Of a DNA stretch of 64,000 nucleotides, positions 4,592-61,796 are shown piece by piece. The stretch comes from Shigella phage SP18, in sequence record GQ981382. The stretch is one strand, 5' to 3'. The position numbers and the translations under genes are program-made. Each line of letters starts with the position of its first letter. Position 1 is the stretch's first letter. The notes beneath the pieces are model-generated. The model had not been told where the DNA came from. It did not search any database and worked only from the letters and a program-made list of their open reading frames with translations.

Positions 4592-4630
4592 CTACTTTTT
4601 GAAGAAAATTTCAAATTTATTCGGGGTATA

Positions 4631-4659
4631 AAAAAAGCCCCAACCTTTCGGAAGGGGCT
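4631..4659 (-). terminator. rho-independent terminator (AGCCCC-loop-GGGGCT then U7 on minus strand) downstream of tRNA region
   Basis: Stem 4636-4641/4654-4659, A-run 4631-4636 on plus. Confidence 0.6.
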
Positions 4660-5215: not shown

Positions 5216-5291
5216 TGGTCGAGACAGTAGGGATCGAACCTACGACCTAGGACTTAGAAGGTCCTTGCTCTTCCTTCTGAGCTATGCCTCG
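5216..5291 (-). tRNA. tRNA-Arg (anticodon UCU), CCA encoded
   Basis: Manual cloverleaf: acceptor CGAGGCA/TGTCTCG, D-stem GCTC/GAGC, anticodon stem AGGAC/GTCCT with loop CTTCTAA, T-arm GTAGG-TTCGATC-CCTAC. Confidence 0.8.
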
Positions 5292-5298
5292 TAATTTG

Positions 5299-5370
5299 CG
5301 GACACACATGGATTCGAACCATGGACCAATTGATTAACAGTCAACTGCTCTACCACTGAGCTATGCATCC
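5299..5370 (-). tRNA. tRNA-Asn (anticodon GUU), CCA not encoded
   Basis: Manual cloverleaf: D-arm GCTC-AGTGGTA-GAGC, anticodon loop CTGTTAA, T-arm CATGG-TTCGAAT-CCATG, acceptor with two G-U pairs. Confidence 0.75.
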
Positions 5371-5374
5371 AAAT

Positions 5375-5449
5375 TGGTGGCCCTTGCTGGTTTCGATCCA
5401 GCTACCTATCAGTTATGAGCTGACAGCTCTCCCATTGAGCTAAAGGGCC
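5375..5449 (-). tRNA. tRNA with CAU anticodon (Met or Ile2), CCA encoded
   Basis: Manual cloverleaf: acceptor GGCCCTT/AAGGGCC, D-arm GCTC-AATGGGA-GAGC, anticodon loop CTCATAA, T-arm GCTGG-ATCGAAA-CCAGC. Confidence 0.75.
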
Positions 5450-5542: not shown

Positions 5543-5944
5543 TTAACCTTCATCAACAATAGTATGTGTATTGGCATTGACAATCTGCCACCAGTCAAAA
5601 CGGTTGGAACCATAACAAGGCTTCTTCTCGTTTTCTTTAATGATAACGCGCAGTTCATCTTCAGTCGCAGCCTTTGCGATTAAGTCAGCATAACCGCCAC
5701 GAGGATAATAGCTATCACCCGCGAACAAAAGGAAATTTACCTTCCCAGAAGGGATATAGGCTTCCTTTGGATACTTGTTTCCTGCATGGTCTACCACTTC
5801 AATATAACGATAAGGAATATCAGTATTTTCAATCCATTGCCACGCCGCGGCAGGAGAATCAAAAGCATCTACACCTAAACGGTTATCTTCATCTTTAGAC
5901 GGGTTATTTTCATAATCCGCATATACATAATATTCAACGTTCAT
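5543..5944 (-). CDS. hypothetical protein
   Basis: ORF track 133 aa; TAATG overlap with upstream small ORF. Confidence 0.5.
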   Translation of the reverse strand: MNVEYYVYADYENNPSKDEDNRLGVDAFDSPAAAWQWIENTDIPYRYIEVVDHAGNKYPKEAYIPSGKVNFLLFAGDSYYPRGGYADLIAKAATEDELRVIIKENEKKPCYGSNRFDWWQIVNANTHTIVDEG

Positions 5945-6063
5945 TATTCACCTTTAGAGATTTTATCCATAACGAAAGAGATTGAACCAATTAAAAATGC
6001 AACTACTAAAGAGATTATATTCTCAGAAGTTGAAAGCATATTCAACATAAAGCCAGCAAACAT
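5944..6063 (-). CDS. small hydrophobic peptide (39 aa), possibly the 3' part of a gene split by a frameshift from the 21-aa ORF at 6065-6130
   Basis: ATG at 6061-6063 without RBS; upstream tiny ORF 6065-6130 has a strong GAGGAG RBS and ends in a T-run. Confidence 0.3.
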   Translation of the reverse strand: MFAGFMLNMLSTSENIISLVVAFLIGSISFVMDKISKGE

Positions 6064-6150
6064 GCTAAAACCAAAAAGCGGTAACAGCAACAAGGGCAGT
6101 AACATTTCTAATTAATTCGCAACGTTTCATTTTATTCTCCTCAGTAGTTG

Positions 6151-6187
6151 ATGGGATAATCATACTACAGTTATCCCATCACGTACA
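6151..6187 (-). promoter_or_regulatory. early promoter variant: -35 TGTACG, 17 bp, -10 TATGAT inside inverted repeat GATGGGATAA/TTATCCCATC
   Basis: Near-duplicate of element at 6484-6521. Confidence 0.45.
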
Positions 6188-6466
6188 CTAAATTTTTGTA
6201 TATTGTCCAGCTTTAACTTTTTTCAGTTCACGAGGGCTTACCGCGTAAGTGAATGGAGCATTCCAGGAAGAACTGACTTTGTAACCTTTAGTCAACATCA
6301 TTGCTGAAACTTTCTTGTTATCAGGACCGTTTTCGCCTTTAACAAGAAACAACTCAAATGCGCCACCATCAACCGGTTTGGCCTTAACCATCAGATATCC
6401 TTTCAGGTCTTCCAGCATATCCGGGTGACTAATTGATTCGTTAATAAATTCTTGATAAGTTTTCAT
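6188..6466 (-). CDS. internal protein (IP) family member with capsid-targeting N-terminus MKTYQEFINE
   Basis: N-terminal 10 aa matches the T4 IP capsid targeting sequence; promoter with TATAAT in hairpin loop upstream. Confidence 0.7.
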   Translation of the reverse strand: MKTYQEFINESISHPDMLEDLKGYLMVKAKPVDGGAFELFLVKGENGPDNKKVSAMMLTKGYKVSSSWNAPFTYAVSPRELKKVKAGQYTKI

Positions 6467-6483
6467 TAGTAGCTCCAGTAGTT

Positions 6484-6521
6484 GATGGGATAATTATACT
6501 GCAACTATCCCATCACGTACA
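6484..6521 (-). promoter_or_regulatory. early promoter variant: -35 TGTACG, 17 bp, -10 TATAAT inside inverted repeat GATGGGATA/TATCCCATC, upstream of IP gene 6188-6466
   Basis: -10 within hairpin loop; followed by GGAG RBS. Confidence 0.5.
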
Positions 6522-6529
6522 TTACATTT

Positions 6530-6812
6530 TTACATTTTTGAACCACGAATTACACCATAAGCGGCGAAGTCGTCAGAAATATCTTTAGGAGAGTTCTTAC
6601 CAGTTTCAATGAAGGCAATGCTTGACTTCTGACTAAAAGAGGTAATTTTGTTATAGTTGGAGTCAAGGAAGGTATAACCATTTTTACGCAGCTGGTCAAA
6701 GTCTTCAGCGTCGCCTTTACCTTTGAAGTCAACCCATTTGTAGGTGTTTTTCTTCTGAAGACCCAGAGGCCAGGTAATTGTTTTCTACCAAAAATTCATG
6801 AAAAGTTTGCAT
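6530..6812 (-). pseudogene. internal protein-like gene interrupted by an apparent +1 frameshift in a 5-nt homopolymer (plus-strand T run 6747-6751)
   Basis: ATG at 6810-6812 gives MQTFHEFLVENNYLASGSSEE then TGA; the remaining 66 codons are open in the adjacent frame and lack any start codon. Confidence 0.5.
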
Positions 6813-6820
6813 TTGAAATC

Positions 6821-7093
6821 CTATTTTAGATAAATTGCGTATTTTTTATAACCAGCCGTCTCATGACGGAGACCCTTGTCATTGGCAAAACGCTCAATGT
6901 TATTAATTTGGTTCTGGTCAAGTTCTGAAATGTCAAACGCGAAAAAGTTGCGTTTGTTACCAATTGTTATATGGTCAGTCAAGTCAATGCTATACAAGTG
7001 ATTGATATTGTCAATCATAGCTTTGACTGCTTTACTAATTTTTACTTCTTCGTTCAGTTGGGACTCGTTGAAAAATTCATTGAAAGTTTTCAT
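6821..7093 (-). CDS. internal protein (IP) family member, N-terminus MKTFNEFFNE
   Basis: ORF track 90 aa; CTS-like N-terminus. Confidence 0.65.
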   Translation of the reverse strand: MKTFNEFFNESQLNEEVKISKAVKAMIDNINHLYSIDLTDHITIGNKRNFFAFDISELDQNQINNIERFANDKGLRHETAGYKKYAIYLK

Positions 7094-7101
7094 AAGAAAC
7101 C

Positions 7102-7434
7102 TTATTTATAAAGTTTTGCCAGTTCTTTACGTCCACGAGCAGACATAATAAATTGTTCATCGCCAATTTTAAAATAAGCCATACCACCGTCAACAGCGAT
7201 ACCAATTTCTTTAGTACCTTCTTTGCCTTTCCACTTGCCACCAGATTTCAGGACAGCTTCAACTGCAGCTTTGGAATATTTGGACGTTTGAAAACGTTCA
7301 TTACCAATCTGAAAGAAAACACCATCTGCATTTTTGGTTAAACCAAATTTCAGAGAGCCTTCACTATCATCAATTGATTTGGTCTCATTGATGGCGGATT
7401 CGGCTAAAAACTCGTTGTAAGTTTTGACGCTCAT
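7102..7434 (-). CDS. internal protein (IP) family member, N-terminus MSVKTYNEFLAE
   Basis: Internal ATG 11 codons into the track ORF; CTS-like N-terminus with L-x-E cleavage context. Confidence 0.6.
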   Translation of the reverse strand: MSVKTYNEFLAESAINETKSIDDSEGSLKFGLTKNADGVFFQIGNERFQTSKYSKAAVEAVLKSGGKWKGKEGTKEIGIAVDGGMAYFKIGDEQFIMSARGRKELAKLYK

Positions 7435-7494
7435 TTTAACTCCGTTTGTTCGTTGGTGTAGGAACATATTACTGCACCTACACTCATTTGTACA

Positions 7495-8182
<688 letters not shown>

Positions 8183-11463: not shown

Positions 11464-13247
11464 TTAATATGTCAGATAATGTAAGTTGGTTCGTCGGGGT
11501 TGTCGAAGACCGAATGGACCCACTTCAGCAAGGTCGTGTGCGTGTTCGTGTATGGGGTATGCATCCATATGAGAAAGCACAAGGGCCTGTTAAAGGTATC
11601 AGAACCGAAGACCTTCCTTGGATGTCTGTATTGATGCCGACATCATCTGCATCAGTTTCTGGGATTCAAACTGCCATGACTGGTATGGTCCCAGGTACTC
11701 AAGTATATGGTCACTTTTTAGACAAGTGGAAGCTCAACGGTCTTGTTATTGGTACGTATGGTTCAGCCTCAAGACAAAAGGCAAATCCTAACGAAGGCTT
11801 CTCTGACCCTACAGGACAATACCCGCTTTATGTTGGTAATGATGCTGCAGCGCTTAACCGTGGCGGTGAAGTCGGTTATGATGCAACTTCGAACGTAATT
11901 CAGGATGCGAACCTTGACCTTGGTATTAACCCAGATGGTCTTGATTTGAGCCAGGTTAAGCCTGATGATAATCCTAATTTCACAATTGAAAATATGCTCC
12001 ACCGTGATGAAGGTCTTCGACTGAAGGTATATTGGGACACCGAAGGTTATCCTACTATAGGCATAGGACACTTAATTGCACCACAACCTATTAGAGATAT
12101 GAATCAGATAAACAAAATATTATCTAATCAAATAGGCCGTGAAGTTAAAGGTAACCCTGGTGCAATATCAATGGACGAGGCTTCTAAGTTATTCCAAGAA
12201 GACCTTAAAAAAGTCCAAAACGATATAGGTAGGCATAGTGTTGTGGGTCCGGTTTATAATAAAGAAAACCGTTCGAGACAAATGGCTCTTGAAAACATGG
12301 CTTTCCAAATGGGATTAGGTGGATTGGCTAAATTCCGTGGAATGCTTAGCGCAATGTTAGTAGGTGATTATAAAAAAGCATTTGAGGAAGCTCGTAATTC
12401 AGTATGGTTTAACCAAACTAAAGGACGTGCATCAAGGGTATCAATGATTATCCTTACCGGTAATATGGAATCATATGGTATTATGGCTCCTAAAGAAAGG
12501 TCATTTAAAGGGCGTTCATATAGGATGATTCAAACCTTTGCAGCCCCTGCAAATTCTGACCCAGCCGACCCATGGACTCCAGAAGATACACGGATTCTAT
12601 TTAAAGAGCCAGAATCAAGTTACAAGGGCGAATATCCTTACGTGCAGACAATGCAAACTGAAGGCGGTCATATTCAGGAATTCGATAACACCCCTGGACA
12701 AGAACGTTATCGACTGATTCACCCAACCGGTTCCTACGAGGAAGTTGCACCAGATGGTCGTAAGACTTCGAAGACAGTGGCCGATGGTTATTATATGACC
12801 CAGGGTGATTCGAGTACTTACGTTGGTGGTAATAATAAAGTCAACGTTGGCGGTGATGAAACCTATTATAATATGGCTAATGTTCGTCGTCAGACCGATG
12901 GAAACGAAAGCATTCATATTCGTGGGAATGAAACCAAAACTGTAGAAGGTAATGGAACTTTGCTTGTTAAAGGAAATGTTAAAATAGTTATTATGGGTAC
13001 TGCTGATATAACTGTTGAACAAGAAGCATATATTACGGTTGAAAAAGATACAACAGTTAATGTCAACCAGAATGCAGATATAAGTGTTAAACAAAAGGCC
13101 ACAATCAATGCTCAAAATATGGATGTAAATGTCGAACAAGATTTAAATTTTGCAGCGACGAACATTAATTTAAACGCATCAAATACTGTGCATATGGATG
13201 GTGGTTCATTAGCTAAAGTATCTGGTGGCAACGTACAGGTCGGTTAA
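11460..13247 (+). CDS. 5: gp5 baseplate hub subunit and tail lysozyme (cell-puncturing device)
   Basis: N-terminal NVSWFVGVVED...; internal T4-lysozyme-like domain (HRDEGLRLKVYWDTEGYPTIGIGH); C-terminal beta-helix repeats. Confidence 0.9.
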   Translation: MINMSDNVSWFVGVVEDRMDPLQQGRVRVRVWGMHPYEKAQGPVKGIRTEDLPWMSVLMPTSSASVSGIQTAMTGMVPGTQVYGHFLDKWKLNGLVIGTYGSASRQKANPNEGFSDPTGQYPLYVGNDAAALNRGGEVGYDATSNVIQDANLDLGINPDGLDLSQVKPDDNPNFTIENMLHRDEGLRLKVYWDTEGYPTIGIGHLIAPQPIRDMNQINKILSNQIGREVKGNPGAISMDEASKLFQEDLKKVQNDIGRHSVVGPVYNKENRSRQMALENMAFQMGLGGLAKFRGMLSAMLVGDYKKAFEEARNSVWFNQTKGRASRVSMIILTGNMESYGIMAPKERSFKGRSYRMIQTFAAPANSDPADPWTPEDTRILFKEPESSYKGEYPYVQTMQTEGGHIQEFDNTPGQERYRLIHPTGSYEEVAPDGRKTSKTVADGYYMTQGDSSTYVGGNNKVNVGGDETYYNMANVRRQTDGNESIHIRGNETKTVEGNGTLLVKGNVKIVIMGTADITVEQEAYITVEKDTTVNVNQNADISVKQKATINAQNMDVNVEQDLNFAATNINLNASNTVHMDGGSLAKVSGGNVQVG

Positions 13248-13248
13248 T

Positions 13249-15312
13249 ATGAATTACTACGATAAAGTTGATGAAGTGGTAGGGACTGTAACAAGTCCCT
13301 GTGATGACGCAGTAGGACCCGGTGAATATCGCCGGGTTAAATGGGAATTATATAACCCAACAGGTGCTTTTATTCAACCTGGGAATGGCGTTGAATGGGA
13401 TACCGAGATTATTCCACTAGCTACACATTTATACACACAAAATCCATTTGGTAATAAGTCCGAAACTTTTCCTGCACCTCCGCCGCCGGAAGATGGAACA
13501 AGTCAAGGTATCTGGTGTGCTAAACTCGGAATATTCTTTATTACGCAATTGGATTTAGAAAATTATGTAGAATCGATTGGTGCAACTCTTTTGTCCGGTA
13601 ATGATTGGTACGGTGCTGATTTATCAAAATCCGTATTGTATAAAACATCTATTGAATATGATATGTATCGCATCGAAAACTGTGGCGGTGTATGGACGTC
13701 ACAAGGCCCTAGAATGGACCCCAGGACGATGATTGCAGTTACGGCTGATTATCATATGTATGTCAACTTTAACGGCCTTGGTGACTCCCGCAGGGCTTAT
13801 TTGAAGTACTATGAGACAAAACCTTGTACTTATGTTGGACTGGTATTAAATCTAGATGTTGATATGAGTATCCCAGGAACTCCGATTCCGGGACCGGTAT
13901 CCATTGGGTCTTTACCGCCAGAAATAACCGGGCGAGCCAGGGCAATAAGCTGTGTTCCTTTTACAGCGGAATTCCCTTACAACGGATTGACCAATGCGAT
14001 TATGGCTTCATGGAATACATCTAGGAATTCATTCAAATTATATTGGGATATGCTCCCTGGATGGCCATCATCTGGTGGAACCGATTGGGAAAAATTCTTC
14101 GATTCTGGTTATAGTAAGCTATCGGTCGCAATGGAAGAGCTAGGCAACTCAGCTGTTGCTATGTGTCAATATGTTCAGCAAATGGCTTTTCTTGCATTTA
14201 AAGATGCCATATCACAGGTCTTGAATATTGTTGGCGGTGGGTGGGACTTACTTAAAAGCTTTTTACCCTCGATTACTATTATGGGCATGACTATTGACCT
14301 GGAAGACCTCTGCACTTCAGGTGATGGTGTACAGAAATTAAAAGAAGCATGGAAAAACTTTAATTTAGAAGAAACCATCCAATCGATTTATTCTGCCATT
14401 GGGTCGGCATACGATTATTCGGTTGAACGCGTCAAGATGTATTCGCGTGACCTTATTGATGCAATTACAGACTTGTATGACTGGGCCTGGTCTCAATTGC
14501 TTATGGCTGGTGTTGCATTATCAAAACTGTGTGTAGACCTCGCTCAAATATGGAGTATGCCTCCTATAGTTCCGAACCCAGTTTGGAGCGTTATTACTGC
14601 GGTCAAGGAAATGATGAAGCAAGTTAAACCACTGGACATGATAATGAGCGGTAACTTTCCAGGATTCACAGCATCAGATGTTTATCAAATGGTTATGGAA
14701 AAGGTAGACCAGAAAATAGACGAAGCTTATGCAATGATTGAGGCTCTTAAAACCAAGGCACTCAATCTGTGGAATGAGATTAAGCTCAAAAAGCAAGAAG
14801 TACAAAAACAAGCTATTGAATTTAAACAATATCTTTCAGGAATGTACGAAAAAGTTACAGACGAGCTAACTGCTCAGAAGGAAGCCGCATTATCACAAGC
14901 TGAAGCTGCACTTGAACTTTTAAAGAATAAATATAATCAGATTAAGAACTCTATTACCGAAAGTCAAACCTCTGTTTCTGATGTATTAGATATGGCTTTA
15001 GAAGAATTCAAAAAACTTCCTATTGTGGCTCAAATGGAAGAACTTCTCGGTATGCTCGGAGCTACTGTAGATGATATCATGGTTATATACGAGAACTCAG
15101 TAACTAAAGCAAAATCTTTATATCACGAATTTACTGATGGTTCCAGGTCAATGAAAGACTTGTGCAAATCAATGTATAACCAAATATCAACATTATCCTT
15201 AAGTAAGGTGGTACAATGGATTAATAAGATGCTGGGAATATTCGGTTTAACGATTGCATTTCCATCCCTTTCCATTTGCATACCTTGTTTAGAATCTCCT
15301 ACTAGGAATTAA
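13249..15312 (+). CDS. unrecognised 687-aa protein between genes 5 and 6; Pro-rich N-terminal half, long helical C-terminal half
   Basis: ATG at 13249 just after gp5 stop (TAATATG); continuous ORF ending 1 nt before gene 6; no T4 counterpart recalled at this position (T4 has small 5.1/5.3/5.4). Confidence 0.6.
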   Translation: MNYYDKVDEVVGTVTSPCDDAVGPGEYRRVKWELYNPTGAFIQPGNGVEWDTEIIPLATHLYTQNPFGNKSETFPAPPPPEDGTSQGIWCAKLGIFFITQLDLENYVESIGATLLSGNDWYGADLSKSVLYKTSIEYDMYRIENCGGVWTSQGPRMDPRTMIAVTADYHMYVNFNGLGDSRRAYLKYYETKPCTYVGLVLNLDVDMSIPGTPIPGPVSIGSLPPEITGRARAISCVPFTAEFPYNGLTNAIMASWNTSRNSFKLYWDMLPGWPSSGGTDWEKFFDSGYSKLSVAMEELGNSAVAMCQYVQQMAFLAFKDAISQVLNIVGGGWDLLKSFLPSITIMGMTIDLEDLCTSGDGVQKLKEAWKNFNLEETIQSIYSAIGSAYDYSVERVKMYSRDLIDAITDLYDWAWSQLLMAGVALSKLCVDLAQIWSMPPIVPNPVWSVITAVKEMMKQVKPLDMIMSGNFPGFTASDVYQMVMEKVDQKIDEAYAMIEALKTKALNLWNEIKLKKQEVQKQAIEFKQYLSGMYEKVTDELTAQKEAALSQAEAALELLKNKYNQIKNSITESQTSVSDVLDMALEEFKKLPIVAQMEELLGMLGATVDDIMVIYENSVTKAKSLYHEFTDGSRSMKDLCKSMYNQISTLSLSKVVQWINKMLGIFGLTIAFPSLSICIPCLESPTRN

Positions 15313-21393: not shown

Positions 21394-21396
21394 CTA

Positions 21397-21420
21397 GGGA
21401 CCTTCGGGTCCCTTTTTATT
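21397..21420 (+). terminator. rho-independent terminator GGGACC-TTCG-GGTCCC-T5 after gene 8
   Basis: UUCG tetraloop hairpin plus T-run. Confidence 0.75.
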
Positions 21421-21456: not shown

Positions 21457-22326
21457 ATGATTAATCAAACCCCAAAACTTTTAATAGATGTCGGCGAAAT
21501 TGGTAACGCCAGCACCGGCGATATCTTATATGATGGTGGTCGTAAAATTAACGAAGATTTTAATAACGTCTATAATACCTTCGGTGACCAACGTCTTTAT
21601 TCAATCGATAACGGCCAGAACTCTCAGGTCTTGCATGCTACAGGTTATTATCAAAAAGCAACAAACATAATCGAATGGAACACTCCTGTTGCGCTTGGTT
21701 CTCTCCGCGATGTCGATACCTCCAAGGGTGTTGTTACTGCCAGGATTGCCCGCGGTAAAATGGGTGAAGGTATTATCTTCATTAACTCTAACGGGACTTT
21801 ATCACCAACTCAATCTCTGGAAATCGAACTTCAAGGCACAGATACTTTCGTTTCGGCTCCGACCAACAAAATTCGCTTCACAAGCCCTTATACAAAGATT
21901 ACTCTTTGGTGTATCGATGACGCAAACGGCGTTGGCACCTGGGATTATTCAATCGAAAATATGTTTGGTGTAAAACATATTCCTTTGGACCGAACTTATA
22001 ATATCGGTCTGAACGCAAGAGATATTCCGATTGCATTGCGCGGTGATTTCAAAACAATGAAACTTTTGTTAACCGCTATATCTACTGATGAAACTAAATA
22101 CAAAGCATCAGAGGTCATGCTCTTTGTAGACACTCAAGCTAACCAAGTGTATAGCACAGAATACGGTGTATTGCGTCGTGGTCACGTGGATGACGATGAT
22201 GAGTTATATACCATTAACTTTAAAATAGGCGCTGACAACTTCGTTACGGCGACCGTAAGCGCACCAGTCTCCATGAAGCTCGCCATTAAGGTAGCCGAGA
22301 CACAAACCATTGGGGTAGCAATCTAA
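21457..22326 (+). CDS. 9: gp9 baseplate wedge subunit / long tail fibre socket
   Basis: 289 aa; TATAAATA late promoter at 21422-21429. Confidence 0.85.
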   Translation: MINQTPKLLIDVGEIGNASTGDILYDGGRKINEDFNNVYNTFGDQRLYSIDNGQNSQVLHATGYYQKATNIIEWNTPVALGSLRDVDTSKGVVTARIARGKMGEGIIFINSNGTLSPTQSLEIELQGTDTFVSAPTNKIRFTSPYTKITLWCIDDANGVGTWDYSIENMFGVKHIPLDRTYNIGLNARDIPIALRGDFKTMKLLLTAISTDETKYKASEVMLFVDTQANQVYSTEYGVLRRGHVDDDDELYTINFKIGADNFVTATVSAPVSMKLAIKVAETQTIGVAI

Positions 22327-24136
22327 TGAAACAAAATTTAAAAATAGGCGTGATGGTCGATGATGGTACCGGCGATTATCTTCGTCTCGGCGGCCAAAAA
22401 TTAATAATAACTTTGATGACCTTTACTACCAGCTCGGTGATGGAGAAAATCCTCATGCTGCTGGTGCATGGAAAACATGGTCAGTAGCCGACGGTACAAC
22501 TCTGGAAGCCGTTATGGGTCGTAGCTATGCAGTGAATACCTCAAATGGTATGATTACTGTTAAGCTTCCTAAAGGAACTCCGTCTGAATATAATTACGTT
22601 ATTCGTTTGCGTGATGTGTTTGCAACTTGGCAAGTCTCCCCGGTGACGATTGTTCCGGCTGTTGGCGACACAATGAAAGGTTCTCCTGACCCTGTTGTTA
22701 TCCGTCGTAACCTGGCAGATATCGAACTGGTTTATTGCTCTCCTGGCCGTTGGGAATATATTGACAACAAACAGATTGACAAGATTTCGAATAACGACGT
22801 GGCAACTGTTGAGACCCAGCAATTCATCGCAACAGAAGGTCAAACGGACTTCCTGGATGTGTTTAATGGTCGTCCTTATAACATTGCAAGTCTCGAAGTT
22901 AAACATCGTGGTAACGACCTGTTTTATGGCAAAGATGATATTTTCGACCCGGTGAATGCTGAATTCGGTTCGCCTGGTGCAGCGCCTGGTGAAATTGTAA
23001 CCCTTGACGGTCGCAATATTCGTTTACGTATGCCTTGTGCAGCTGGTGACACGGTTATTGTCAGAACATTCAACGATGGTATTGCTCAGTATCGTAGTTC
23101 TTATAACCGTCGAGATGTTCAAATCCGTGATTCGAAATTTACTCTTGAAACCCCGGTCGAAGGCTCTTTGGTTGTAGCTGATTTATCTACTAAACACACA
23201 TTTATGGTTACTGAACTTGCGGTATCTCCTAGCAGTCCAATTAACCCGAATGCATGTGAAGTTTATATCAACAGCATATTACAGCACGAAGCAGGAACTG
23301 CAAACTATCCAGCTTATACATGCGAAGGTGCTAATGGTGACACTGCAGAAGAGTGTACAGATAATGGTGGTCAATGGGCTAAATCAAAAGAAGACTATAT
23401 AACAACCTTTGATGAAGACAACCGTATTGAATCTTTTGAGTTTGCTCGCACATTTGAAGATGGTGATATTCTGTCTATCGTTTGGTATAATAACGATATT
23501 GGCACCACAATGACTCTTGATGAAATTACAGATGAAACAAATAACATCTATGTTTCCCAGGGTCCAGAAGTTTCAATCACCGGTGATATAAGAATTACGG
23601 ATTACGATAATCCATTTGCTCCTAACCTGGAACCGGTTGACCCGAGCGAAATTAAACCATCTGCTGTTTCGATTCTCTTTAATATGTTCCATCCAATTGG
23701 CACAATTTACGAGAATACGACTAACCCAAATAACCCTGCGACATATATGGGTATGGGAACATGGAAGCGACTTGAAGAGCGTGTTTTGATTGGTTGGTCT
23801 GCTGACCCAGCCTCAAACTTCCATACAAACAATAACGACCTGGATTCTTCTGGTGTTCCGCAGGCAACCGCAGGGGGTACTGGTGGTAATGTACAAATTC
23901 ACATTAAACCAACCAATATTCCTAAAATTCAGACCGATGAAAAAGTATTGGTAGCTGATGCAACTGGCCCAATTATTGTTGGTGGTTGCCTGATTGACCC
24001 GGATGCACAAGGTCCTGCTTATACAAACTATCGCGAAGATTATGCGACTATTAATGAAGCTCTTGACCCACTGGCACAGCCAATAGATACGCTTCCTCCA
24101 TATTTGATTGTTTACCGTTGGGTAAGGATTGCATAA
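22326..24136 (+). CDS. 10: gp10 baseplate wedge subunit, reading frame interrupted by an apparent 1-nt deletion in an A5 run (22396-22400)
   Basis: ATG at 22326 (TAATG with gp9) gives MKQNLKIGVMVDDGTGDYLRLGGQ in frame A; from the A-run the T4-like sequence KINNNFDDLYYQLGDG... continues in the -1 frame to 24136; joined length 603 aa versus T4 602. Confidence 0.75.
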
Positions 24137-55398: not shown

Positions 55399-56487
55399 AT
55401 GAAAGTAAAAGAACTCGATATTGCGGGTTTATTTAACGGAGGTTCTAAGACCTCCGCTGGGCAGTCAAAAGCTGCCCAGACTCAAGCTACTATTGTGGCG
55501 CAATATCCAGCAGAACGAGCTTCCGGTAATGATTCTTCAGATGATATGCGAGTTAATGACCTTTATAAAAATGGTCTGTTATTCACGGCATACAATTTCA
55601 GTTCAAGAACATCTCCGGAATTACGCTCAGACAGGTCAAGCCAATTGACTTCATTAAAGAAAGTTTCCAATGGCGCTTCATTTAACCCGGTTAAAAGTTT
55701 AACATCTTTTGCTAAATCGAAATTAACCGGCGCTGGCTCAACAGGTAAAAGTTTTGATTCAAACGCTGTTGCAAATATCCTGTTGCCTCGTTCGAAGTCT
55801 GATGTAGAATCCGTATCGCACCGATTCAACGATGTTGGTGAATCTCTTATTACGAAAGGGGGCGGCTCAGCTACAGGTATTCTTAGTAACATCGCATCGA
55901 CTGCAGTTTTCGGCGCACTCGAATCAGTTACAAATGGTGTAATGGCCGACCATGGTGAACAGATTTACACAACCGCGCGAAGCATGTATGCTGGTCCTGA
56001 TAACAGGACAAAAGTTTACACATGGGAAATGACTCCACGTTCGGCCCAGGACTTAATCCAGATAGTGAAGATATACGAGATTTTTAACTATTATTCCTAT
56101 GGAGAAACCGGCAAAAGTTCGTTTGCTTCCGAGCTGAAAGAAAAAATCGATACATGGTATAAATCCACCTTCAAAAAAGAAGCAATCGATAACTTTGACG
56201 GCAAGTTGCTCGGTGAAGAGATAACAAGCTTCCTAACGAACGTTCTGGTGGTCTCTAACCCTACTATCTGGTATATCCGCAACTTCGGCGATACAAGCTC
56301 GTACGATGGTCGTGGGGAGCTATTTGGGCCGTGTCAGATTCAGAGCATACGATTTGACAAATCACCGGATGGTCATTTCGGTGGATTAGCTATTGCTCCT
56401 AACCTACCATCGACTTTTGTGCTTGAAATCACTTTCCGTGAAATCATTACGCTTAACCGTGGCTCGTTATATGCGGAGGGTTTCTAA
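55399..56487 (+). CDS. 48: gp48 baseplate tail tube cap
   Basis: 362 aa (T4 364). Confidence 0.8.
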   Translation: MKVKELDIAGLFNGGSKTSAGQSKAAQTQATIVAQYPAERASGNDSSDDMRVNDLYKNGLLFTAYNFSSRTSPELRSDRSSQLTSLKKVSNGASFNPVKSLTSFAKSKLTGAGSTGKSFDSNAVANILLPRSKSDVESVSHRFNDVGESLITKGGGSATGILSNIASTAVFGALESVTNGVMADHGEQIYTTARSMYAGPDNRTKVYTWEMTPRSAQDLIQIVKIYEIFNYYSYGETGKSSFASELKEKIDTWYKSTFKKEAIDNFDGKLLGEEITSFLTNVLVVSNPTIWYIRNFGDTSSYDGRGELFGPCQIQSIRFDKSPDGHFGGLAIAPNLPSTFVLEITFREIITLNRGSLYAEGF

Positions 56488-57431
56488 TGTTTACTTTACA
56501 AGAATTCCAAACGCAGGCGATTAATATCGACTTACAAAGGAATAACCTTTTTAGTGTGGTCTTCGCGACCGCACCTTCCTCTAAATCTCAGAATCTTCTG
56601 GACCAGTTTGGTGGCGCATTATTCAGCAACCTTCCTGTTAACTCAGATTGGTTCGGATTAACACAAGGTGACTTAACTCAAGGGATAACAACTCTTGTTA
56701 CTGCCGGAACACAAAAGCTTATTCGCAAATCAGGGATAAGCAAATATCTTATTGGGGCAATGAGTAACCGTGTTGTGCAATCATTATTAGGGGAATTTGA
56801 GGTTGGTACTTACCTGCTTGATTTCTTTAATATGGCTTATCCAACGGCTGGTCTATTAGTTCACTCTGTTAAGCTTCCGGATAACACATTGAACTACGAA
56901 ATGGACCTTAACCATAATGCGCCAAATATCAAGATAACAGGGAGAGAATATTCTCCGTTGGTATTGAGCTTTAGAATGGATTCAGAGGCGGGGAACTTCA
57001 GAGCATTTAACGATTGGGTTAACTCTGTACAGGACCCAGTTACCCAGCTAAGGGCTTTGCCTGAAGACGTTGAAGCTGATATTCAGGTTAACCTTCATTC
57101 GCGTAATGGGTTACCACATACGGTTGTTATGTTAACCGGTTGTGTTCCTGTAAGTGTATCAGCGCCTGAATTGAGCTATGAAGGGGATAATCAGATAGCT
57201 ACATTTGATGTAACTTTTGCTTATCGCGTTATGTCAACTGGTGCGGTGGGAAGAGCTGCAGCATTGGAATGGTTGGAAGATAAGGTTATTAAAGGTGTAT
57301 CTGGTATTAGTTCAGATAACAACTTGAACGCAGAAGTTGCCAAATTGAGTCGCTTGTCTGGTGCTCAATCTGGATTAACAAGTCTATACAATACGTTTAC
57401 TGGTTCTGGCGGAAGTCAACGTATATTATAA
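56487..57431 (+). CDS. 54: gp54 baseplate tail tube initiator
   Basis: 314 aa (T4 320); terminator follows. Confidence 0.8.
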   Translation: MFTLQEFQTQAINIDLQRNNLFSVVFATAPSSKSQNLLDQFGGALFSNLPVNSDWFGLTQGDLTQGITTLVTAGTQKLIRKSGISKYLIGAMSNRVVQSLLGEFEVGTYLLDFFNMAYPTAGLLVHSVKLPDNTLNYEMDLNHNAPNIKITGREYSPLVLSFRMDSEAGNFRAFNDWVNSVQDPVTQLRALPEDVEADIQVNLHSRNGLPHTVVMLTGCVPVSVSAPELSYEGDNQIATFDVTFAYRVMSTGAVGRAAALEWLEDKVIKGVSGISSDNNLNAEVAKLSRLSGAQSGLTSLYNTFTGSGGSQRIL

Positions 57432-57438
57432 AAAGAAA

Positions 57439-57459
57439 GGGACCGAAGGTCCCTTTTTA
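57439..57459. terminator. bidirectional terminator GGGACC-GAA-GGTCCC-T5 between gene 54 (+) and minus-strand gene
   Basis: Hairpin plus T-run; A-run upstream. Confidence 0.7.
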
Positions 57460-57811: not shown

Positions 57812-59872
57812 CTACGAAAGGAATTTAGGAGGAATAGCTTCCAAATTAATACAACTAGCAAGAATACCAAGACCTTGATTGACTTTCTTCGTTACCCCAG
57901 AGGATGCAAACGATGCAAAGTCAACAGATTCTACTGGCTCTTCTGTTTCCTCGCCCTGATAAACGACAAGCTCACCAGTTTCCATCAACACATCACCATC
58001 ATAGATAACTGCATTTTCATCCAGTTGGTCAGTGGTCTGGATATCAGCTTCCAGCATTTTGACGTTCGCGTTTCCTTTATACGAAGCATCCGTAATTTTG
58101 GTAATCTTAACTACAGTTCCACGTGGAAGAATAACTTCCTGCTCGGATGGGTTGCCTGACAATTCCCCAGGAACAATTACGTTAATTAAGTCTGCCCCAG
58201 AAATTTTCCAACCGACATGAATCATTGCGTTGTCCGGGTTTGCACCTGGGATATTTGGTAAAACAATTTCGTCATCAGCCTGGAAAGATGTCCCGTCGCG
58301 ATAGTCCTGATGAACTGCGGCCATAGCAACGTTCGCCACCCAGCCACCAAAGATAATTGGTTTAAATGATGTTGATACATAGTTCCTAAAATAGAATAAT
58401 TTCGACTGTTTAATTTTATTAAATGTAGGAACGTTTAAATATTGACCACGCCAAAGAGTTGTATTAGGTGGCAACTTATGTCCAATTTCAAAGGCCGAAT
58501 CCAATTCCTTAATTGTTTCGACAACTCTGTCTAGATTTAGGAATTCGGTGTCTTCTTCATAATAATTACCCATCAAATAATTATTAATATCGACATAGTT
58601 GGCTCCACAATAATCTGCAATTGCTTCACGCTGGCCATAATGGAAACGGTTGTCAGTATACCCTGCTGTGAAATTAAGAGTATTTTCTGATGCTTCTTCT
58701 GCAAAGTCTTTAACTGCAACACGAATGGCGCTTGTGTATTCTTCTTCCCAGAGCGTGGCTGCATAAGTGGCTGCATCCAGGTTAGGAGGAGCATCATTCA
58801 TTTTTCTTTCGATAAATGCGGCTTTGCGAAGGTTAAGAATCTCTGCACATGATTCGGCAAAAATCTGCATCTGCTTCATACTACCAACTGGAGCACGTTT
58901 AAGTTCGCGATGCATACGGTTAAAAATTGGGTCAGAGTCTTCAACACGAATTTCTTCTTTCCAAACACCATTTGCACGCATAGCCGTATCTGCTGCGCGC
59001 ATACGAGCCATAGTATTCGTTTCGGAAGGTCGAACAAAAATTTCCAGTTCTTCGTAATCATCGATAAGTTCTGCCGTAGCCGGTCGACTAAACTTAGCAG
59101 CTTCTGCATCAATTTCGTCCCAACCTTCTGGCACGGAATCACTTGGAGCGTACTGGGCTTGTGCAATAGCTCGGCGACTGATTTTAGTTTTCTGGGCAAC
59201 AGCAGCATCGGTCTTTTTGTTTGCTGCATCAATCAGAACTTCGGCTGCGATTTCTTGTTTGGAGACTTGTGCGCCTGTATCTTTATTAGTGAATACATCG
59301 CCGACTTTAGTTTCAACTTTTTGATATTTCTCAGGGACCGGTGGCATACCATCAACCGAAAGCAGGTCAACACCCTTTTTGTACATAATTACATAAGCGT
59401 TCTTTTTACCGAGGCCGGAAGCATTCGGAAGAACATGATAACGCCCGCTGGTTTTCATTTGAATCAGTCGATTCATAATACGAATAACAGCTTGGTCTTG
59501 CCCTTTCATCTTTTTGGATGGGAAACGGAACAAGACTACATCAGGTTTGCCTAGTTTAATGCTTTCCCAGACTGTAACAAAAATCAGGTTAATCGCATCA
59601 AGAGGTTTTTCACCTAGACCACCCTTCAGAGGAACAGCATGGCCATGTGAAGTCCCGGATAACAGGAATACCTCGGCAATTGCATCGCCACGTTTATATT
59701 GTTTAACTGTTTCTTTGCCCGTGAATTGCATCAAACGGGCCATAAGAGAATTGGTCCCAGGAACACCGAATTGCCAAACCTGCGGGACCTTGTATTTTGG
59801 ATTCATATTAATGACAGGATAACCGAAGGCTTCGATATATTTGTCAAAGAGTTCATTTAATTGTTCAGACAT
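57812..59872 (-). CDS. alt: Alt-like ADP-ribosyltransferase (virion-packaged), copy 1
   Basis: 686 aa (T4 Alt 682); S-T-S and E-x-E motifs near C-terminus (YVSTSF, SEQEVILPRG). Confidence 0.8.
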   Translation of the reverse strand: MSEQLNELFDKYIEAFGYPVINMNPKYKVPQVWQFGVPGTNSLMARLMQFTGKETVKQYKRGDAIAEVFLLSGTSHGHAVPLKGGLGEKPLDAINLIFVTVWESIKLGKPDVVLFRFPSKKMKGQDQAVIRIMNRLIQMKTSGRYHVLPNASGLGKKNAYVIMYKKGVDLLSVDGMPPVPEKYQKVETKVGDVFTNKDTGAQVSKQEIAAEVLIDAANKKTDAAVAQKTKISRRAIAQAQYAPSDSVPEGWDEIDAEAAKFSRPATAELIDDYEELEIFVRPSETNTMARMRAADTAMRANGVWKEEIRVEDSDPIFNRMHRELKRAPVGSMKQMQIFAESCAEILNLRKAAFIERKMNDAPPNLDAATYAATLWEEEYTSAIRVAVKDFAEEASENTLNFTAGYTDNRFHYGQREAIADYCGANYVDINNYLMGNYYEEDTEFLNLDRVVETIKELDSAFEIGHKLPPNTTLWRGQYLNVPTFNKIKQSKLFYFRNYVSTSFKPIIFGGWVANVAMAAVHQDYRDGTSFQADDEIVLPNIPGANPDNAMIHVGWKISGADLINVIVPGELSGNPSEQEVILPRGTVVKITKITDASYKGNANVKMLEADIQTTDQLDENAVIYDGDVLMETGELVVYQGEETEEPVESVDFASFASSGVTKKVNQGLGILASCINLEAIPPKFLS

Positions 59873-59881
59873 TTTTAACCC

Positions 59882-61756
59882 TTAATTGAGAAGGTGTACA
59901 AGTTTTTCCATAGACAAATCATAAGAGATTCTGTCATATTTTTTCAAAAGCGAATTTGATTCGTCTATCTGGTCATTTTCTAAGATAGAGCATTCAACGA
60001 GAATGTATTTACCCATCGAACCCATCATGCCAGCTGTAGCACCATAGACTTTATCAATCTTAAGCATTGTTCCACGTGGAAGAATAACTTCGGTTTCAAC
60101 GGACCAGTTTGCCAGGTCACCAGGAATAACTACCTTGATATTTTCTGCACCTTTGATAATCATACCAATCTTGATTGTAGGTTTCGCCGAACCAGTTGCA
60201 CTTTTAATAGTTGCATCGATTGCCCCATCATCGATATCACTCGATAATGCATTTGGGTCAAGGTTCGCAGCGGTGTGGCCCATACGACCGAAAATATTTG
60301 GCGCCAGAGATGTACTCGCAAACATAGGAAGATACATCGTTTTATTTTTTATGGAATTAATTGCCATATCGGTTGGCATGACTTGAGCACGGTAGATGAT
60401 AGTTCCTTTTGGAAGCTTAACACCGTTTTCAAATACTTTATCCATATCGGAAATCATTTTGATTTCGCTTTCTTTTGCGTCAGCTTTCCCTAGCAGGAAA
60501 TTATTGATTGCAGTATATTTTCCGCGAGTATACGCCTTAATTGCTTCGGCCTGGTCTTCAGTTATTTCAGGGTTGTCGGAGATATGAAATAATGGTTGGA
60601 TGGCCTTGGTGTAAATTTCATCTGCGATAATACGAATAGCTTCTTTAGTCTTATCTTCGCGCGCCCAGGTCCCCACAATGGAGTCGTCAAGCAACATATC
60701 AGCAACTCTACGCAATGTATCAACAGGATTCTTTGAGGCCCGCAGGACGTTCGAAAACTCACTTATTTTGTGTTCCATGTCAACTTCTTTAAGAGCATTA
60801 AACACATCCATGGCTACACGAGTTTTTGTCTTATCTTCACCAACACCACCTTGTGCAACTAAATCAAAATAGTCTGCATACTCATCACCCGCACGGTCGA
60901 TTACTTTTATTGAAGCTTTAGCTATCTGACTTTCTCTGGCATCATCTGCTGAATGCACTGCGCTACTGGTCGAGAGTTTTGTATAAATCTCTTTGTGCTC
61001 TGGTGAGAATTTAGCAAGGCCAGTTGGTTCGTTCCCCGAATACAATGCGTTAATAGCTGCGCGTTTAGAAAACTTGGTTTTAACAACAACTGCCTGGTCT
61101 GTACGTTTTTCTTCAACCTTTGCAATAGAGGCCGCAATAGCTTCATTCTTGGTAACAGTTTCGCCGGTGGCTTTGTCTACATAAACATCACCGACTTTCG
61201 ATTCCACTTTTGTGTACAATTCGGTATTGATGCCAGGAATTCCGGCGATAGATTCAATTGGTTTGGATTTACGATAAATCAATACGTAAGTATGTTTACC
61301 CGTGTACTGATACATATCATCCAGAACTTTGAACTGACCGCCGGCACGGGCCATAATAAGCCGAGCAAGAACACGCTGAATAGTTCGTTCTTGTCCCTTC
61401 ATTTTGCGGGTCGGGAAGCGGAACATAATTGCATCCATTTTCATCAGTTTTACTTGTTCGTAAACTACATCAAAAATGGATTTAATTGCTCCAATCGGGT
61501 TATCACCAAGACCACCTTTAAGAATAGCTGGAGTACCGTTTGAATTTAATGACATCAAAATAACGTGTGCATACTTATCGCCAGTTTTGACCTGTTTAAT
61601 AGCATCGCCTTCGGATGCGTAAGACACCATACGAGCAATAAGATTATCATTCCCCGGGACCTGGATATTCCAAATCTGTGGAACTTTTGACTTTGAAAGG
61701 TTAATGGCCGGGATATTAGATTCCCCTTCAAAAACCTCTGACAATAATTCGGTCAT
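59882..61756 (-). CDS. Alt-like ADP-ribosyltransferase, copy 2 (tandem paralog)
   Basis: 624 aa; N- and C-termini alignable with copy 1 (FASTSL, VETEVILPRG). Confidence 0.75.
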   Translation of the reverse strand: MTELLSEVFEGESNIPAINLSKSKVPQIWNIQVPGNDNLIARMVSYASEGDAIKQVKTGDKYAHVILMSLNSNGTPAILKGGLGDNPIGAIKSIFDVVYEQVKLMKMDAIMFRFPTRKMKGQERTIQRVLARLIMARAGGQFKVLDDMYQYTGKHTYVLIYRKSKPIESIAGIPGINTELYTKVESKVGDVYVDKATGETVTKNEAIAASIAKVEEKRTDQAVVVKTKFSKRAAINALYSGNEPTGLAKFSPEHKEIYTKLSTSSAVHSADDARESQIAKASIKVIDRAGDEYADYFDLVAQGGVGEDKTKTRVAMDVFNALKEVDMEHKISEFSNVLRASKNPVDTLRRVADMLLDDSIVGTWAREDKTKEAIRIIADEIYTKAIQPLFHISDNPEITEDQAEAIKAYTRGKYTAINNFLLGKADAKESEIKMISDMDKVFENGVKLPKGTIIYRAQVMPTDMAINSIKNKTMYLPMFASTSLAPNIFGRMGHTAANLDPNALSSDIDDGAIDATIKSATGSAKPTIKIGMIIKGAENIKVVIPGDLANWSVETEVILPRGTMLKIDKVYGATAGMMGSMGKYILVECSILENDQIDESNSLLKKYDRISYDLSMEKLVHLLN

Positions 61757-61796
61757 ATTGTTTTCCTTATAAAATATGATGTATTTATACGAAAAA

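What the first reader, a model, noticed from the sequence alone, without database searches (positions are those of the whole stretch)
5944..6812. Three apparent homopolymer-associated frame breaks in 64 kb
Besides gp10 (A5 at 22396-22400) and the IP-like gene (T5 at 6747-6751), the tiny ORF 6065-6130 (strong RBS, ends in a T/A run) and the start-less-looking 39-aa ORF 5944-6063 would fuse into one about 61-aa two-helix membrane protein with a single-base change near 6064-6077. Three such events all at A/T runs points to sequencing/assembly indels rather than biology, which matters for trusting other short ORF calls here.
Basis: seen in the sequence. Interest (0 to 1): 0.35.

Follow-up and report, generated by a model that had tools for sequence, protein, structure and literature searches.

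The report
Two sequencing miscalls, one real deletion
The three broken genes in this T4-like phage sequence (Shigella phage SP18) are two single-base homopolymer errors, most likely from 454 pyrosequencing, plus one 17-base deletion in a dispensable gene; this is a data-quality issue, not new biology.

Summary
The window is Shigella phage SP18, a Gaprivervirus (T4-like) whose genome was determined by pyrosequencing.

1. Trna.4: the run at 6073-6077 is A5; relatives have A4. Removing one A gives a 61-aa protein identical to one seen on 52 other contigs.
2. gp10, an essential baseplate protein: the run at 22396-22400 is A5. Every relative whose run could be read has A6, and every relative has an intact 603-aa gene.
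3. The real lesion is a 17-bp deletion between two 7-bp direct repeats (GCCAGGT), leaving one copy at 6769-6775.

The two homopolymer changes are most likely 454 miscalls. This is near-certain for gp10, because SP18 is a viable phage. The 17-bp deletion is not a 454-type error. It is most likely a recent, real slipped-mispairing deletion in a gene that relatives gain and lose.

All three alleles are unique to this record, and none shows secondary decay. This is ordinary and of low interest, but short ORF calls next to A/T runs in this record deserve caution.

The parts
6073..6077 (.). A5 run (T5 on the coding, minus strand) inside Trna.4. It has one base more than the A4 of relatives and is the site of the +1 frame break.
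   Evidence: An allele-specific 45-mer with A5 matches 0 phage records; the same 45-mer with A4 matches 19.
6065..6130 (-). N-terminal fragment of Trna.4 (21 aa, MKRCELIRNVTALVAVTAFWF*), with a GAGGAG ribosome-binding site upstream.
5944..6063 (-). C-terminal fragment of Trna.4 (39 aa), annotated in GenBank as SP18 gp152 'predicted membrane protein'. The frame stays open up to an ATG at 6105 (53 aa).
   Evidence: ADO19493.1. PHROG 1692 matches profile positions 18-61 of 61. The repaired 61-aa protein is identical to one seen on 52 contigs.
6769..6775 (.). The single surviving copy of the 7-bp direct repeat GCCAGGT (ACCTGGC on the coding strand). This is the junction of a 17-bp deletion (one repeat copy plus a 10-bp spacer) at codon 15-16 of the IP-like gene.
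   Evidence: The junction 45-mer is absent from 50,697 phage records. Shorter junction patterns are absent from the viral and metagenome contig collections.
6729..6812 (-). N-terminal fragment of the IP-like gene (27 aa). The first 15 aa, MQTFHEFLVENNYLA, are native (a capsid-targeting-type leader); 12 out-of-frame residues follow.
6530..6768 (-). Remainder of the IP-like gene, out of frame with its start and otherwise undamaged. Restoring the 17 bp gives a 99-aa protein 100% identical to that of phage 212 and others (28 contigs).
   Evidence: PHROG 2667 'internal head protein', E=2e-21, for the intact homologue.
6747..6751 (.). It is unchanged in relatives and is not the lesion.
   Evidence: AAAAA in all four aligned sequences.
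22396..22400 (+). A5 run at gp10 codons 24-25, one base shorter than the A6 of relatives. This is the site of the -1 frame break.
   Evidence: The 45-mer with A5 matches 0 records; with A6 it matches 9.
22326..22487 (+). gp10 N-terminal fragment ORF (53 aa; native for 25 aa), annotated as hypothetical protein SP18gp170.
22514..24136 (+). The 540-aa ORF annotated as SP18 gp10. It lacks the first 63 residues, which correspond to positions 1-75 of the 175-position T4_gp9_10_N Pfam domain. The true frame is open from 22364.
   Evidence: The repaired 603-aa protein matches the gp10 of contig L024 at 603 of 604 aligned positions, stop included.
4630..4636 (.). Intergenic A7 run, against A6 in VR7, VR25, phage 212 and L051. 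A window-unique homopolymer difference; cannot tell error from polymorphism.
21413..21417 (.). T5 run after the gp8/gp9 terminator hairpin, against T6 in 12 of 14 relatives. Two metagenome contigs also have T5, so this can be a natural polymorphism.
57443..57458 (.). gp54/alt.-3 terminator hairpin with two window-unique single-base shortfalls: C2 against C3 (57443-57444) and T5 against T6 (57454-57458). All 13 relatives have the longer runs.

Best explanation
The window is the deposited genome of Shigella phage SP18. It holds three lesions of two different kinds.

(a) Two single-base homopolymer-length changes:
- Trna.4, A4 to A5 at 6073-6077.
- gp10, A6 to A5 at 22396-22400.
These are consensus miscalls of 454 pyrosequencing, which reads a homopolymer as one light pulse and mis-estimates its length. 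The real phage carries intact 61-aa Trna.4 and 603-aa gp10 genes.

(b) The internal-protein-like gene lost 17 bp, made up of one copy of a 7-bp direct repeat (ACCTGGC) plus the 10-bp spacer. This is the signature of slipped mispairing between short direct repeats during replication. It is most likely a real, very recent mutation in the sequenced stock. It inactivates a dispensable, frequently gained-and-lost head internal protein gene.

Shown here: the positions and nature of the lesions, their uniqueness to this record, the identity of the record, and the sequencing platform.
Inferred: that (a) are errors and (b) is real.
For: Identity of the record:
- Exact protein look-ups return SP18 accessions for the broken gene pieces.
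- The platform was pyrosequencing (PMC3694061).

gp10:
- A6 was read in 11 of the 14 relatives and contigs examined; none shows A5.
- All 10 contigs that carry an identical gp9 have an intact 603-aa gp10.
- The contig 99.67% identical to the window (L024) has A6.
- In the gp10 cluster, 13 of the 15 listed members are 603 aa; the exceptions are SP18 itself (540 aa) and P896 (594 aa).
- The 540-aa ORF lacks 75 of the 175 positions of the N-terminal Pfam domain.
- gp10 is essential in T4 (established knowledge), and SP18 lyses S. sonnei.

Trna.4:
- The A4 allele is in 19 phage records and the A5 allele in none.
- Of the 15 cluster members listed (39 in the cluster), 14 are 61 aa and one is 65 aa.
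- Removing one A gives a protein identical to one on 52 contigs.

IP-like gene:
- The alignment shows ACCTGGC-N10-ACCTGGC in VR7, UPEC01 and phage 212, and a single copy in the window.
- Both repeat copies are present in all three intact relatives.
- The gene is absent altogether from one related contig (L020), and the neighbouring 92-aa gene is absent from VR25. The locus therefore tolerates gene loss.
- A second, in-frame deletion between short direct repeats (15 bp between TCTGG copies) occurs in gp54 of this genome. Phage P896 has an independent 18-bp deletion at the same spot. Such deletions are therefore natural in this lineage.

Overall:
- The rest of the window has no other in-gene frame break. 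This fits a polished consensus with a few residual homopolymer errors.
Against: - No reads are available, so none of the three calls can be verified directly.
- A4 to A5 is a short run for a 454 consensus overcall. Trna.4 is non-essential, so that change could be a real slippage mutation, which T4-type polymerases also make at A/T runs.
- The 17-bp deletion shows no secondary decay: the downstream sequence is 100% identical at protein level to phage 212. It is found in no other record. An artefact of library amplification or consensus building therefore cannot be excluded.
- Four of the six window-unique single-base homopolymer differences are intergenic, although about 90% of runs are coding. 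This suggests that some of these differences are natural polymorphisms rather than errors. One of them (21413-21417) is indeed shared with two metagenome contigs.
Confidence: 0.55

Rival explanations
1. Only gp10 is a sequencing error. The Trna.4 +1 frameshift and the IP-like 17-bp deletion are both real, recent loss-of-function mutations in two dispensable accessory genes of the hyperplastic tRNA/IP region.
For: - Both genes lie in a region with presence/absence polymorphism among relatives.
- Replication slippage at A/T runs is the classic frameshift mechanism in T4-type phages (established knowledge).
- A 4-base run is relatively short for a 454 consensus error.
- An in-frame ATG at 6105 leaves a 53-aa hydrophobic product.
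Against: - Trna.4 length is tightly conserved: 14 of the 15 listed cluster members (39 in the cluster) are 61 aa, and no truncated allele occurs on the many contigs examined.
- The A5 allele is in no other record.
- The platform is prone to exactly this change.
- There is no ribosome-binding site in front of the 53-aa or 39-aa ORFs.
Confidence: 0.22
2. All three lesions are artefacts of sequencing or assembly. On this view the 17-bp deletion arose in library amplification or consensus building.
For: - All three alleles are unique to this one record.
- None shows secondary decay.
- The record also has further unique single-base shortfalls at a hairpin (57443-57458) against 13 of 13 relatives. 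This hints at local consensus problems.
Against: - A 17-bp loss is not a pyrosequencing flow error.
- A 7-bp repeat is far too short to collapse in an overlap or k-mer assembly.
- Template switching in emulsion PCR would affect individual reads, not the consensus.
- The repeat-plus-spacer structure is the expected product of in vivo slipped mispairing. Comparable in-frame deletions occur naturally in gp54 of this phage and of P896.
Confidence: 0.15
3. All three lesions are real. The gp10 frameshift would then be tolerated through -1 ribosomal slippage on CAA-AAA-U or through re-initiation at ATG 22514.
For: - A Lys-tRNA slip on A-AAA would restore the native frame (read directly from the sequence).
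- A stable RNA structure is predicted downstream (z = -3.46).
Against: - There is no X XXY YYZ heptamer.
- The structure starts 26 nt after the run, too far to stimulate slippage.
- Every relative encodes gp10 in one frame with A6, so no recoding signal could have been selected.
- The re-initiation product lacks 63 residues of the conserved N-terminal domain.
- gp10 is needed in stoichiometric amounts for every baseplate (established knowledge).
Confidence: 0.03

Closest known systems
454/Roche pyrosequencing homopolymer-length miscalls in early phage genome records
   Same: - Single-base gain or loss inside an A run.
- The record was produced by pyrosequencing.
- The alleles are unique to the record.
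- An essential gene is split into two annotated ORFs.
   Different: - No read data are available to show low-quality flows.
- One of the runs is only 4 bases long in relatives.
Spontaneous deletions between short direct repeats (slipped mispairing), as described for T4 rII and for E. coli lacI
   Same: - Exactly one repeat copy plus the intervening spacer is lost.
- Both copies are present in the intact relatives.
- The repeat is 7 bp and the deletion is short (17 bp).
   Different: - It is seen in a single deposited sequence only.
- Its frequency in the phage stock is unknown.
T4 Trna.4 (Y07D; PHROG 1692, Pfam PF26870)
   Same: - The repaired product is 61 aa and matches the profile.
- It has two hydrophobic segments.
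- It sits in the same position, next to Trna.3.
   Different: As deposited, it is split into 21-aa and 39-aa pieces. Its function is unknown in any phage.
T4-type internal head proteins (IPs) of the hyperplastic 57B-tRNA region
   Same: - It matches PHROG 2667 'internal head protein'.
- Its leader MQTFHEFLVE resembles the leaders of the neighbouring IP genes.
- It lies in the IP gene array, separated by promoter/stem-loop cassettes.
   Different: - It is a pseudogene here: only the leader plus 5 native residues remain in frame.
- Packaging and cleavage were not tested.

Membership tests
Pyrosequencing homopolymer miscall (artefact class) | The change is a gain or loss of one base within a homopolymer run. 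| tested here: met
   Trna.4 A4 to A5 and gp10 A6 to A5. Not met for the IP-like gene, which has a 17-bp deletion.
Pyrosequencing homopolymer miscall (artefact class) | The record was produced on a flow-based platform. | tested here: met
   The record is identified as SP18. [quoted passage not shown] The primary paper is not held.
Pyrosequencing homopolymer miscall (artefact class) | Reads disagree or are of low quality at the run, and independent resequencing gives the other length. | not testable with these tools
   No reads or second assembly of SP18 are available. The SP18 contig is not retrievable.
Direct-repeat (slipped-mispairing) deletion | The ancestral sequence has two copies of a short direct repeat, and the derived sequence keeps one copy and loses the spacer. 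| tested here: met
   ACCTGGC-N10-ACCTGGC in VR7, UPEC01 and phage 212; a single ACCTGGC in the window.
T4 gp10 baseplate wedge protein | Four Pfam domains (T4_gp9_10_N, T4_gp9_10_C, Gp10_D3, Gp10_C), with the gene between genes 9 and 11. | tested here: met
   All four domains are found, but the N-terminal domain of the 540-aa ORF matches only profile positions 76-174 of 175. Synteny is shown.
T4 Trna.4 / Y07D family | A protein of about 61 aa that matches the family profile over its full length. | tested here: met
   Met only after repair. VR7 Trna.4 matches PHROG 1692 over positions 1-61 of 61 (E=5e-33). The window's 53-aa ORF matches only positions 18-61. PF26870 is listed for the 61-aa products.
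T4-type internal head protein | Profile match, plus an N-terminal leader like those of the neighbouring internal protein genes, ending in Glu. | tested here: met
   PHROG 2667, E=2e-21, for the intact homologue. The leaders MQTFHEFLVE, MKTYQEFINE and MKTFNEFFNE are repeated across the array. That these leaders are capsid-targeting sequences cleaved by gp21 is established knowledge, not tested here.
T4-type internal head protein | The protein is packaged in the head and cleaved by the prohead protease. | not testable with these tools
   Needs virion proteomics.
Programmed -1 ribosomal frameshift site (considered for gp10) | A slippery heptamer X XXY YYZ, a stimulatory structure 5-9 nt downstream, and conservation of the two-frame arrangement in relatives. 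| tested here: not met
   The sequence is C CAA AAA U, with no tandem-slip heptamer. The predicted structure starts 26 nt downstream. All relatives encode gp10 in one frame.

The most novel reading that the evidence does not exclude
The A5 run in gp10 is real in SP18, and full-length gp10 is made by -1 slippage of Lys-tRNA on CAA-AAA-U. That would be a newly arisen, unselected recoding event rescuing an essential baseplate gene.
Probability: 0.02. Interest if true: 0.55.

Novelty: not a real feature. Interest (0 to 1): 0.08.

Why it matters
The value is in curation. RefSeq and UniProt carry a 540-aa 'gp10', a 53-aa 'hypothetical protein SP18gp170' and a 39-aa 'predicted membrane protein' for SP18. 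These are fragments of ordinary genes.

Anyone using this record for pan-genome counts, ORFan lists or small-protein discovery would miscount. The corrected reading restores gp10 and Trna.4. It also leaves one likely genuine pseudogene, an internal-protein-like gene, in a region already known to turn over quickly. None of this opens a new biological question.

Tried and rejected
1. I looked for the window's own alleles elsewhere and found none.
- Allele-specific 45-mers against 50,697 phage records gave no match.
- Junction patterns gave no match in the viral contigs or the metagenome contigs.
- A two-allele Trna.4 pattern in both collections returned only the T4-length allele.

2. I tried to retrieve the SP18 contig or an independent assembly through exact protein look-up of gp8 and of the 540-aa gp10. 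Neither is on record for contig retrieval.

3. I tried to read the primary SP18 paper (PMID 20437154). It is not held, so the platform is cited from a review.

4. I used the coding/non-coding split of the window-unique homopolymer differences (2 coding, 4 intergenic) to separate error from polymorphism. I rejected this as decisive. Three of the four intergenic sites sit at terminator hairpins, one is demonstrably polymorphic, and another pair is unique against 13 of 13 relatives. Both readings therefore remain open.

5. I considered programmed frameshifting or re-initiation for gp10 and rejected it.

6. The search for related loci in the viral contigs returned only 4 loci, too few for a census.

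7. One Pfam call failed because I gave a wrong coordinate, and I repeated it correctly.

Full report
**What the window is.**
The 2.1 kb around the finding matches T4-like coliphages of the genus Gaprivervirus (VR7, VR25, VR20, phage 212, UPEC01) at 94-97% identity. The gp7-gp12 region matches at about 95%. Exact protein look-ups then identified the record itself as Shigella phage SP18, 170,605 bp. The following are all GenBank/RefSeq proteins of SP18:
- the 540-aa ORF 22514-24136 (ADO19511.1, 'baseplate wedge subunit and tail pin');
- the 53-aa ORF 22326-22487 (ADO19510.1, 'hypothetical protein SP18gp170');
- the 39-aa ORF 5944-6063 (ADO19493.1, 'predicted membrane protein');
- the neighbouring 92-aa, 90-aa and 133-aa proteins.

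The frame breaks are therefore in the deposited record. A review states that the SP18 genome was obtained by pyrosequencing (PMC3694061). The primary paper is not held.

**Gene map of the region (minus strand).**
Annotated relatives give this order:
- Trna.3 (5543-5944);
- Trna.4 (5944-6130, broken);
- a 92-aa protein (6188-6466);
- an internal-protein-like gene equivalent to VR7 gp154 (6530-6812, broken);
- ip9 (6821-7093);
- a further protein with a similar leader (7102-7467);
- 57B (7495-7950).

Three tRNA genes lie at 5216-5449.

**Lesion 1, Trna.4.**
- The alignment with VR7 and phage 212 shows one extra T on the coding strand, GCTTTTTGG against GCTTTTGG. On the + strand this is A5 at 6073-6077 against A4.
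The 39-aa ORF does begin with ATG, and the frame is open up to an ATG at 6105 (53 aa). Neither has a Shine-Dalgarno sequence.
- Removing one A gives a 61-aa protein, 60 of 61 identical to VR7 Trna.4, with two hydrophobic stretches.
Of the 15 listed members of its 39-member cluster, 14 are 61 aa and one is 65 aa.
- PHROG 1692 matches VR7 Trna.4 over positions 1-61 of 61, but only positions 18-61 of the window's 53-aa ORF.
- A 45-mer in which every 28-base word spans the run finds no phage record with A5 and 19 with A4.

**Lesion 2, the IP-like gene.**
The alignment shows this run is identical in phage 212, VR7 and UPEC01.
- Relatives read AATT-ACCTGGC-(A/G)GAAGCAAAA-ACCTGGC-C. The window reads AATT-ACCTGGC-C. 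That is a 17-bp deletion of one 7-bp repeat copy plus the 10-bp spacer. The surviving copy lies at 6769-6775.
- A 17-bp loss shifts the frame exactly as one extra base would. T5 is the only run of five or more in the roughly 60-nt overlap of the two frames.
- Re-inserting the 17 bp gives a 99-aa protein 100% identical to that of phage 212. The same protein is seen on 28 contigs.
- The intact protein matches PHROG 2667, 'internal head protein' (E=2e-21).
- The junction sequence is absent from the phage records, the viral contigs and the metagenome contigs.
- The gene is dispensable in nature. One related contig (L020) lacks it entirely, VR25 lacks the neighbouring 92-aa gene, and other contigs carry extra genes here.

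**Lesion 3, gp10.**
- The gene starts at 22326, overlapping the gp9 stop. The reading frame runs MKQNLKIGVMVDDGTGDYLRLGGQK and then goes out of frame to a stop at 22485-22487.
- The native frame (INNNFDDLYYQLGDG...) is open from 22364.
- Four relatives have A6 where the window has A5. Of 14 relatives and contigs examined, the 11 whose run could be read all have A6.
- All ten contigs with an identical gp9 carry a 603-aa gp10.
- Contig L024, which is 99.67% identical to the window over 6.9 kb, differs by only two indels. Both are one-base shortfalls in the window's homopolymers.
- The repaired gp10 is 603 aa and matches the L024 gp10 at 603 of 604 aligned positions, stop included.
- The annotated 540-aa ORF lacks positions 1-75 of the 175-position T4_gp9_10_N domain.
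- Allele-specific 45-mers: A5 in 0 records, A6 in 9.

**Is that all?**
- A BLAST-based indel census against VR7, VR25 and phage 212 used about 48 kb covered by all three. It found 17 window-unique indels.
- A tblastn scan for adjacent hits in different frames found no in-gene frame break other than these three. The remaining frame changes fall upstream of start codons or in intergenic DNA.
- Window-unique single-base changes are all in homopolymers, apart from one compensated pair in a diverged patch. They are 4630-4636 (A7 against A6), 6073-6077, 21413-21417 (T5 against T6), 22396-22400, 57443-57444 (C2 against C3) and 57454-57458 (T5 against T6).
- The window has 889 runs of four or more and 261 of five or more, about 90% of them coding.
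- The 21413 variant is shared by two metagenome contigs, so it can be natural.
- The pair at 57443-57458 is unique against 13 of 13 relatives.
- These intergenic sites therefore do not separate error from polymorphism.

**Interpretation.**
- For gp10 the error reading is strong, for three reasons. The gene is essential in T4 (established knowledge). SP18 was isolated and propagated as a lytic phage. And the platform's characteristic error is exactly this change.
- Recoding is not supported. There is no tandem-slip heptamer. The only predicted structure starts 26 nt downstream. Relatives use a single frame.
- For Trna.4 the same error is the likelier reading, given tight length conservation and allele uniqueness. 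A real slippage mutation in a non-essential gene cannot be excluded.
- For the IP-like gene the lesion is of a different kind. It is not a flow error, and a 7-bp repeat cannot collapse in assembly. It has the textbook structure of slipped mispairing between direct repeats.
- The same genome carries an in-frame 15-bp deletion between TCTGG repeats at the end of gp54. Phage P896 has an independent 18-bp deletion there. Such events therefore occur naturally in these phages.
- I judge the 17-bp deletion real and recent, since there is no secondary decay, at about 70%.

**Verdict.**
The 'sequencing error' interpretation holds for the two homopolymer sites and not for the third. Nothing here is new biology. 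The useful output is a correction list for the SP18 record, plus a caution about small ORFs next to A/T runs in it.

Noticed in passing
window 6142-6204 and 6476-6538: Two copies of a 63-nt cassette (86% alike) bracket the 92-aa gene. Each holds a 16-18 nt stem-loop (GATGGGATAA...TTATCCCATC). They look like the promoter/stem-loop (PeSL) cassettes reported to mediate gene shuffling in T4-type hyperplastic regions (PMC2839356, PMC4122927).
   Followed up: partly
window 13225-15312 (+): A 695-aa ORF with no Pfam family sits between gp5 and gp6. VR7, VR25 and phage 212 carry gp5.1 and the PAAR protein gp5.4 in that position. The same protein (99% identity) is in Bp7, WG01 and CJ20, and more distant versions occur in 214 phage records, many of them Klebsiella, Enterobacter or Cronobacter phages. 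What caps the gp5 spike in these phages was not examined.
   Followed up: partly
window about 57404 (end of gp54, 56487-57431): An in-frame 15-bp deletion between TCTGG direct repeats, unique to the window. Phage P896 (L047) has an independent 18-bp deletion at the same place. This looks like a small deletion hotspot in the C-terminus of an essential baseplate protein.
   Followed up: partly
window 57438-57458 and 21396-21417: Two near-identical terminator hairpins (GGGACC...GGTCCC followed by a T run). In both, the window's T run is one base shorter than in most or all relatives. At 57443 a C is also missing against 13 of 13 relatives.
   Followed up: partly
window 5726-5944 (Trna.3 and the Trna.3/Trna.4 junction): The window's Trna.3 (133 aa) groups with Dhakavirus proteins (JS10, WG01) and sits in a cluster that also holds Tequatrovirus proteins. 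Positions 5726-5911 do not align to VR7, VR25 or phage 212. A mosaic junction therefore lies right at the Trna.4 stop codon.
   Followed up: no
L004 (VR7), equivalent to window 21851 and 21864, in gene 9: VR7 alone has a -1/+1 pair of single-base indels 13 nt apart in gp9 (TTT to TT and AA to AAA). This is a compensated frameshift of about 4 codons, which may itself be a sequencing artefact in the VR7 record.
   Followed up: no
window 59872-61763: A segment of about 1.9 kb between alt and gene 30 is absent from VR7 and VR25 but present in phage 212. There a 624-aa hypothetical protein is annotated between DNA ligase and Alt.
   Followed up: no
window 5216-5449: The window has three tRNA genes (Arg-TCT, Asn-GTT, Met-CAT). 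VR7 is annotated with only tRNA-Met, and VR25 with Arg and Met, at the same place.
   Followed up: no
window 22427-22480 (inside gp10): The predicted RNA structure is more stable than all 200 shuffles (-22.1 kcal/mol, z = -3.46). It is in coding sequence, its significance is unknown, and it is too far from the A run to act as a frameshift stimulator.
   Followed up: no
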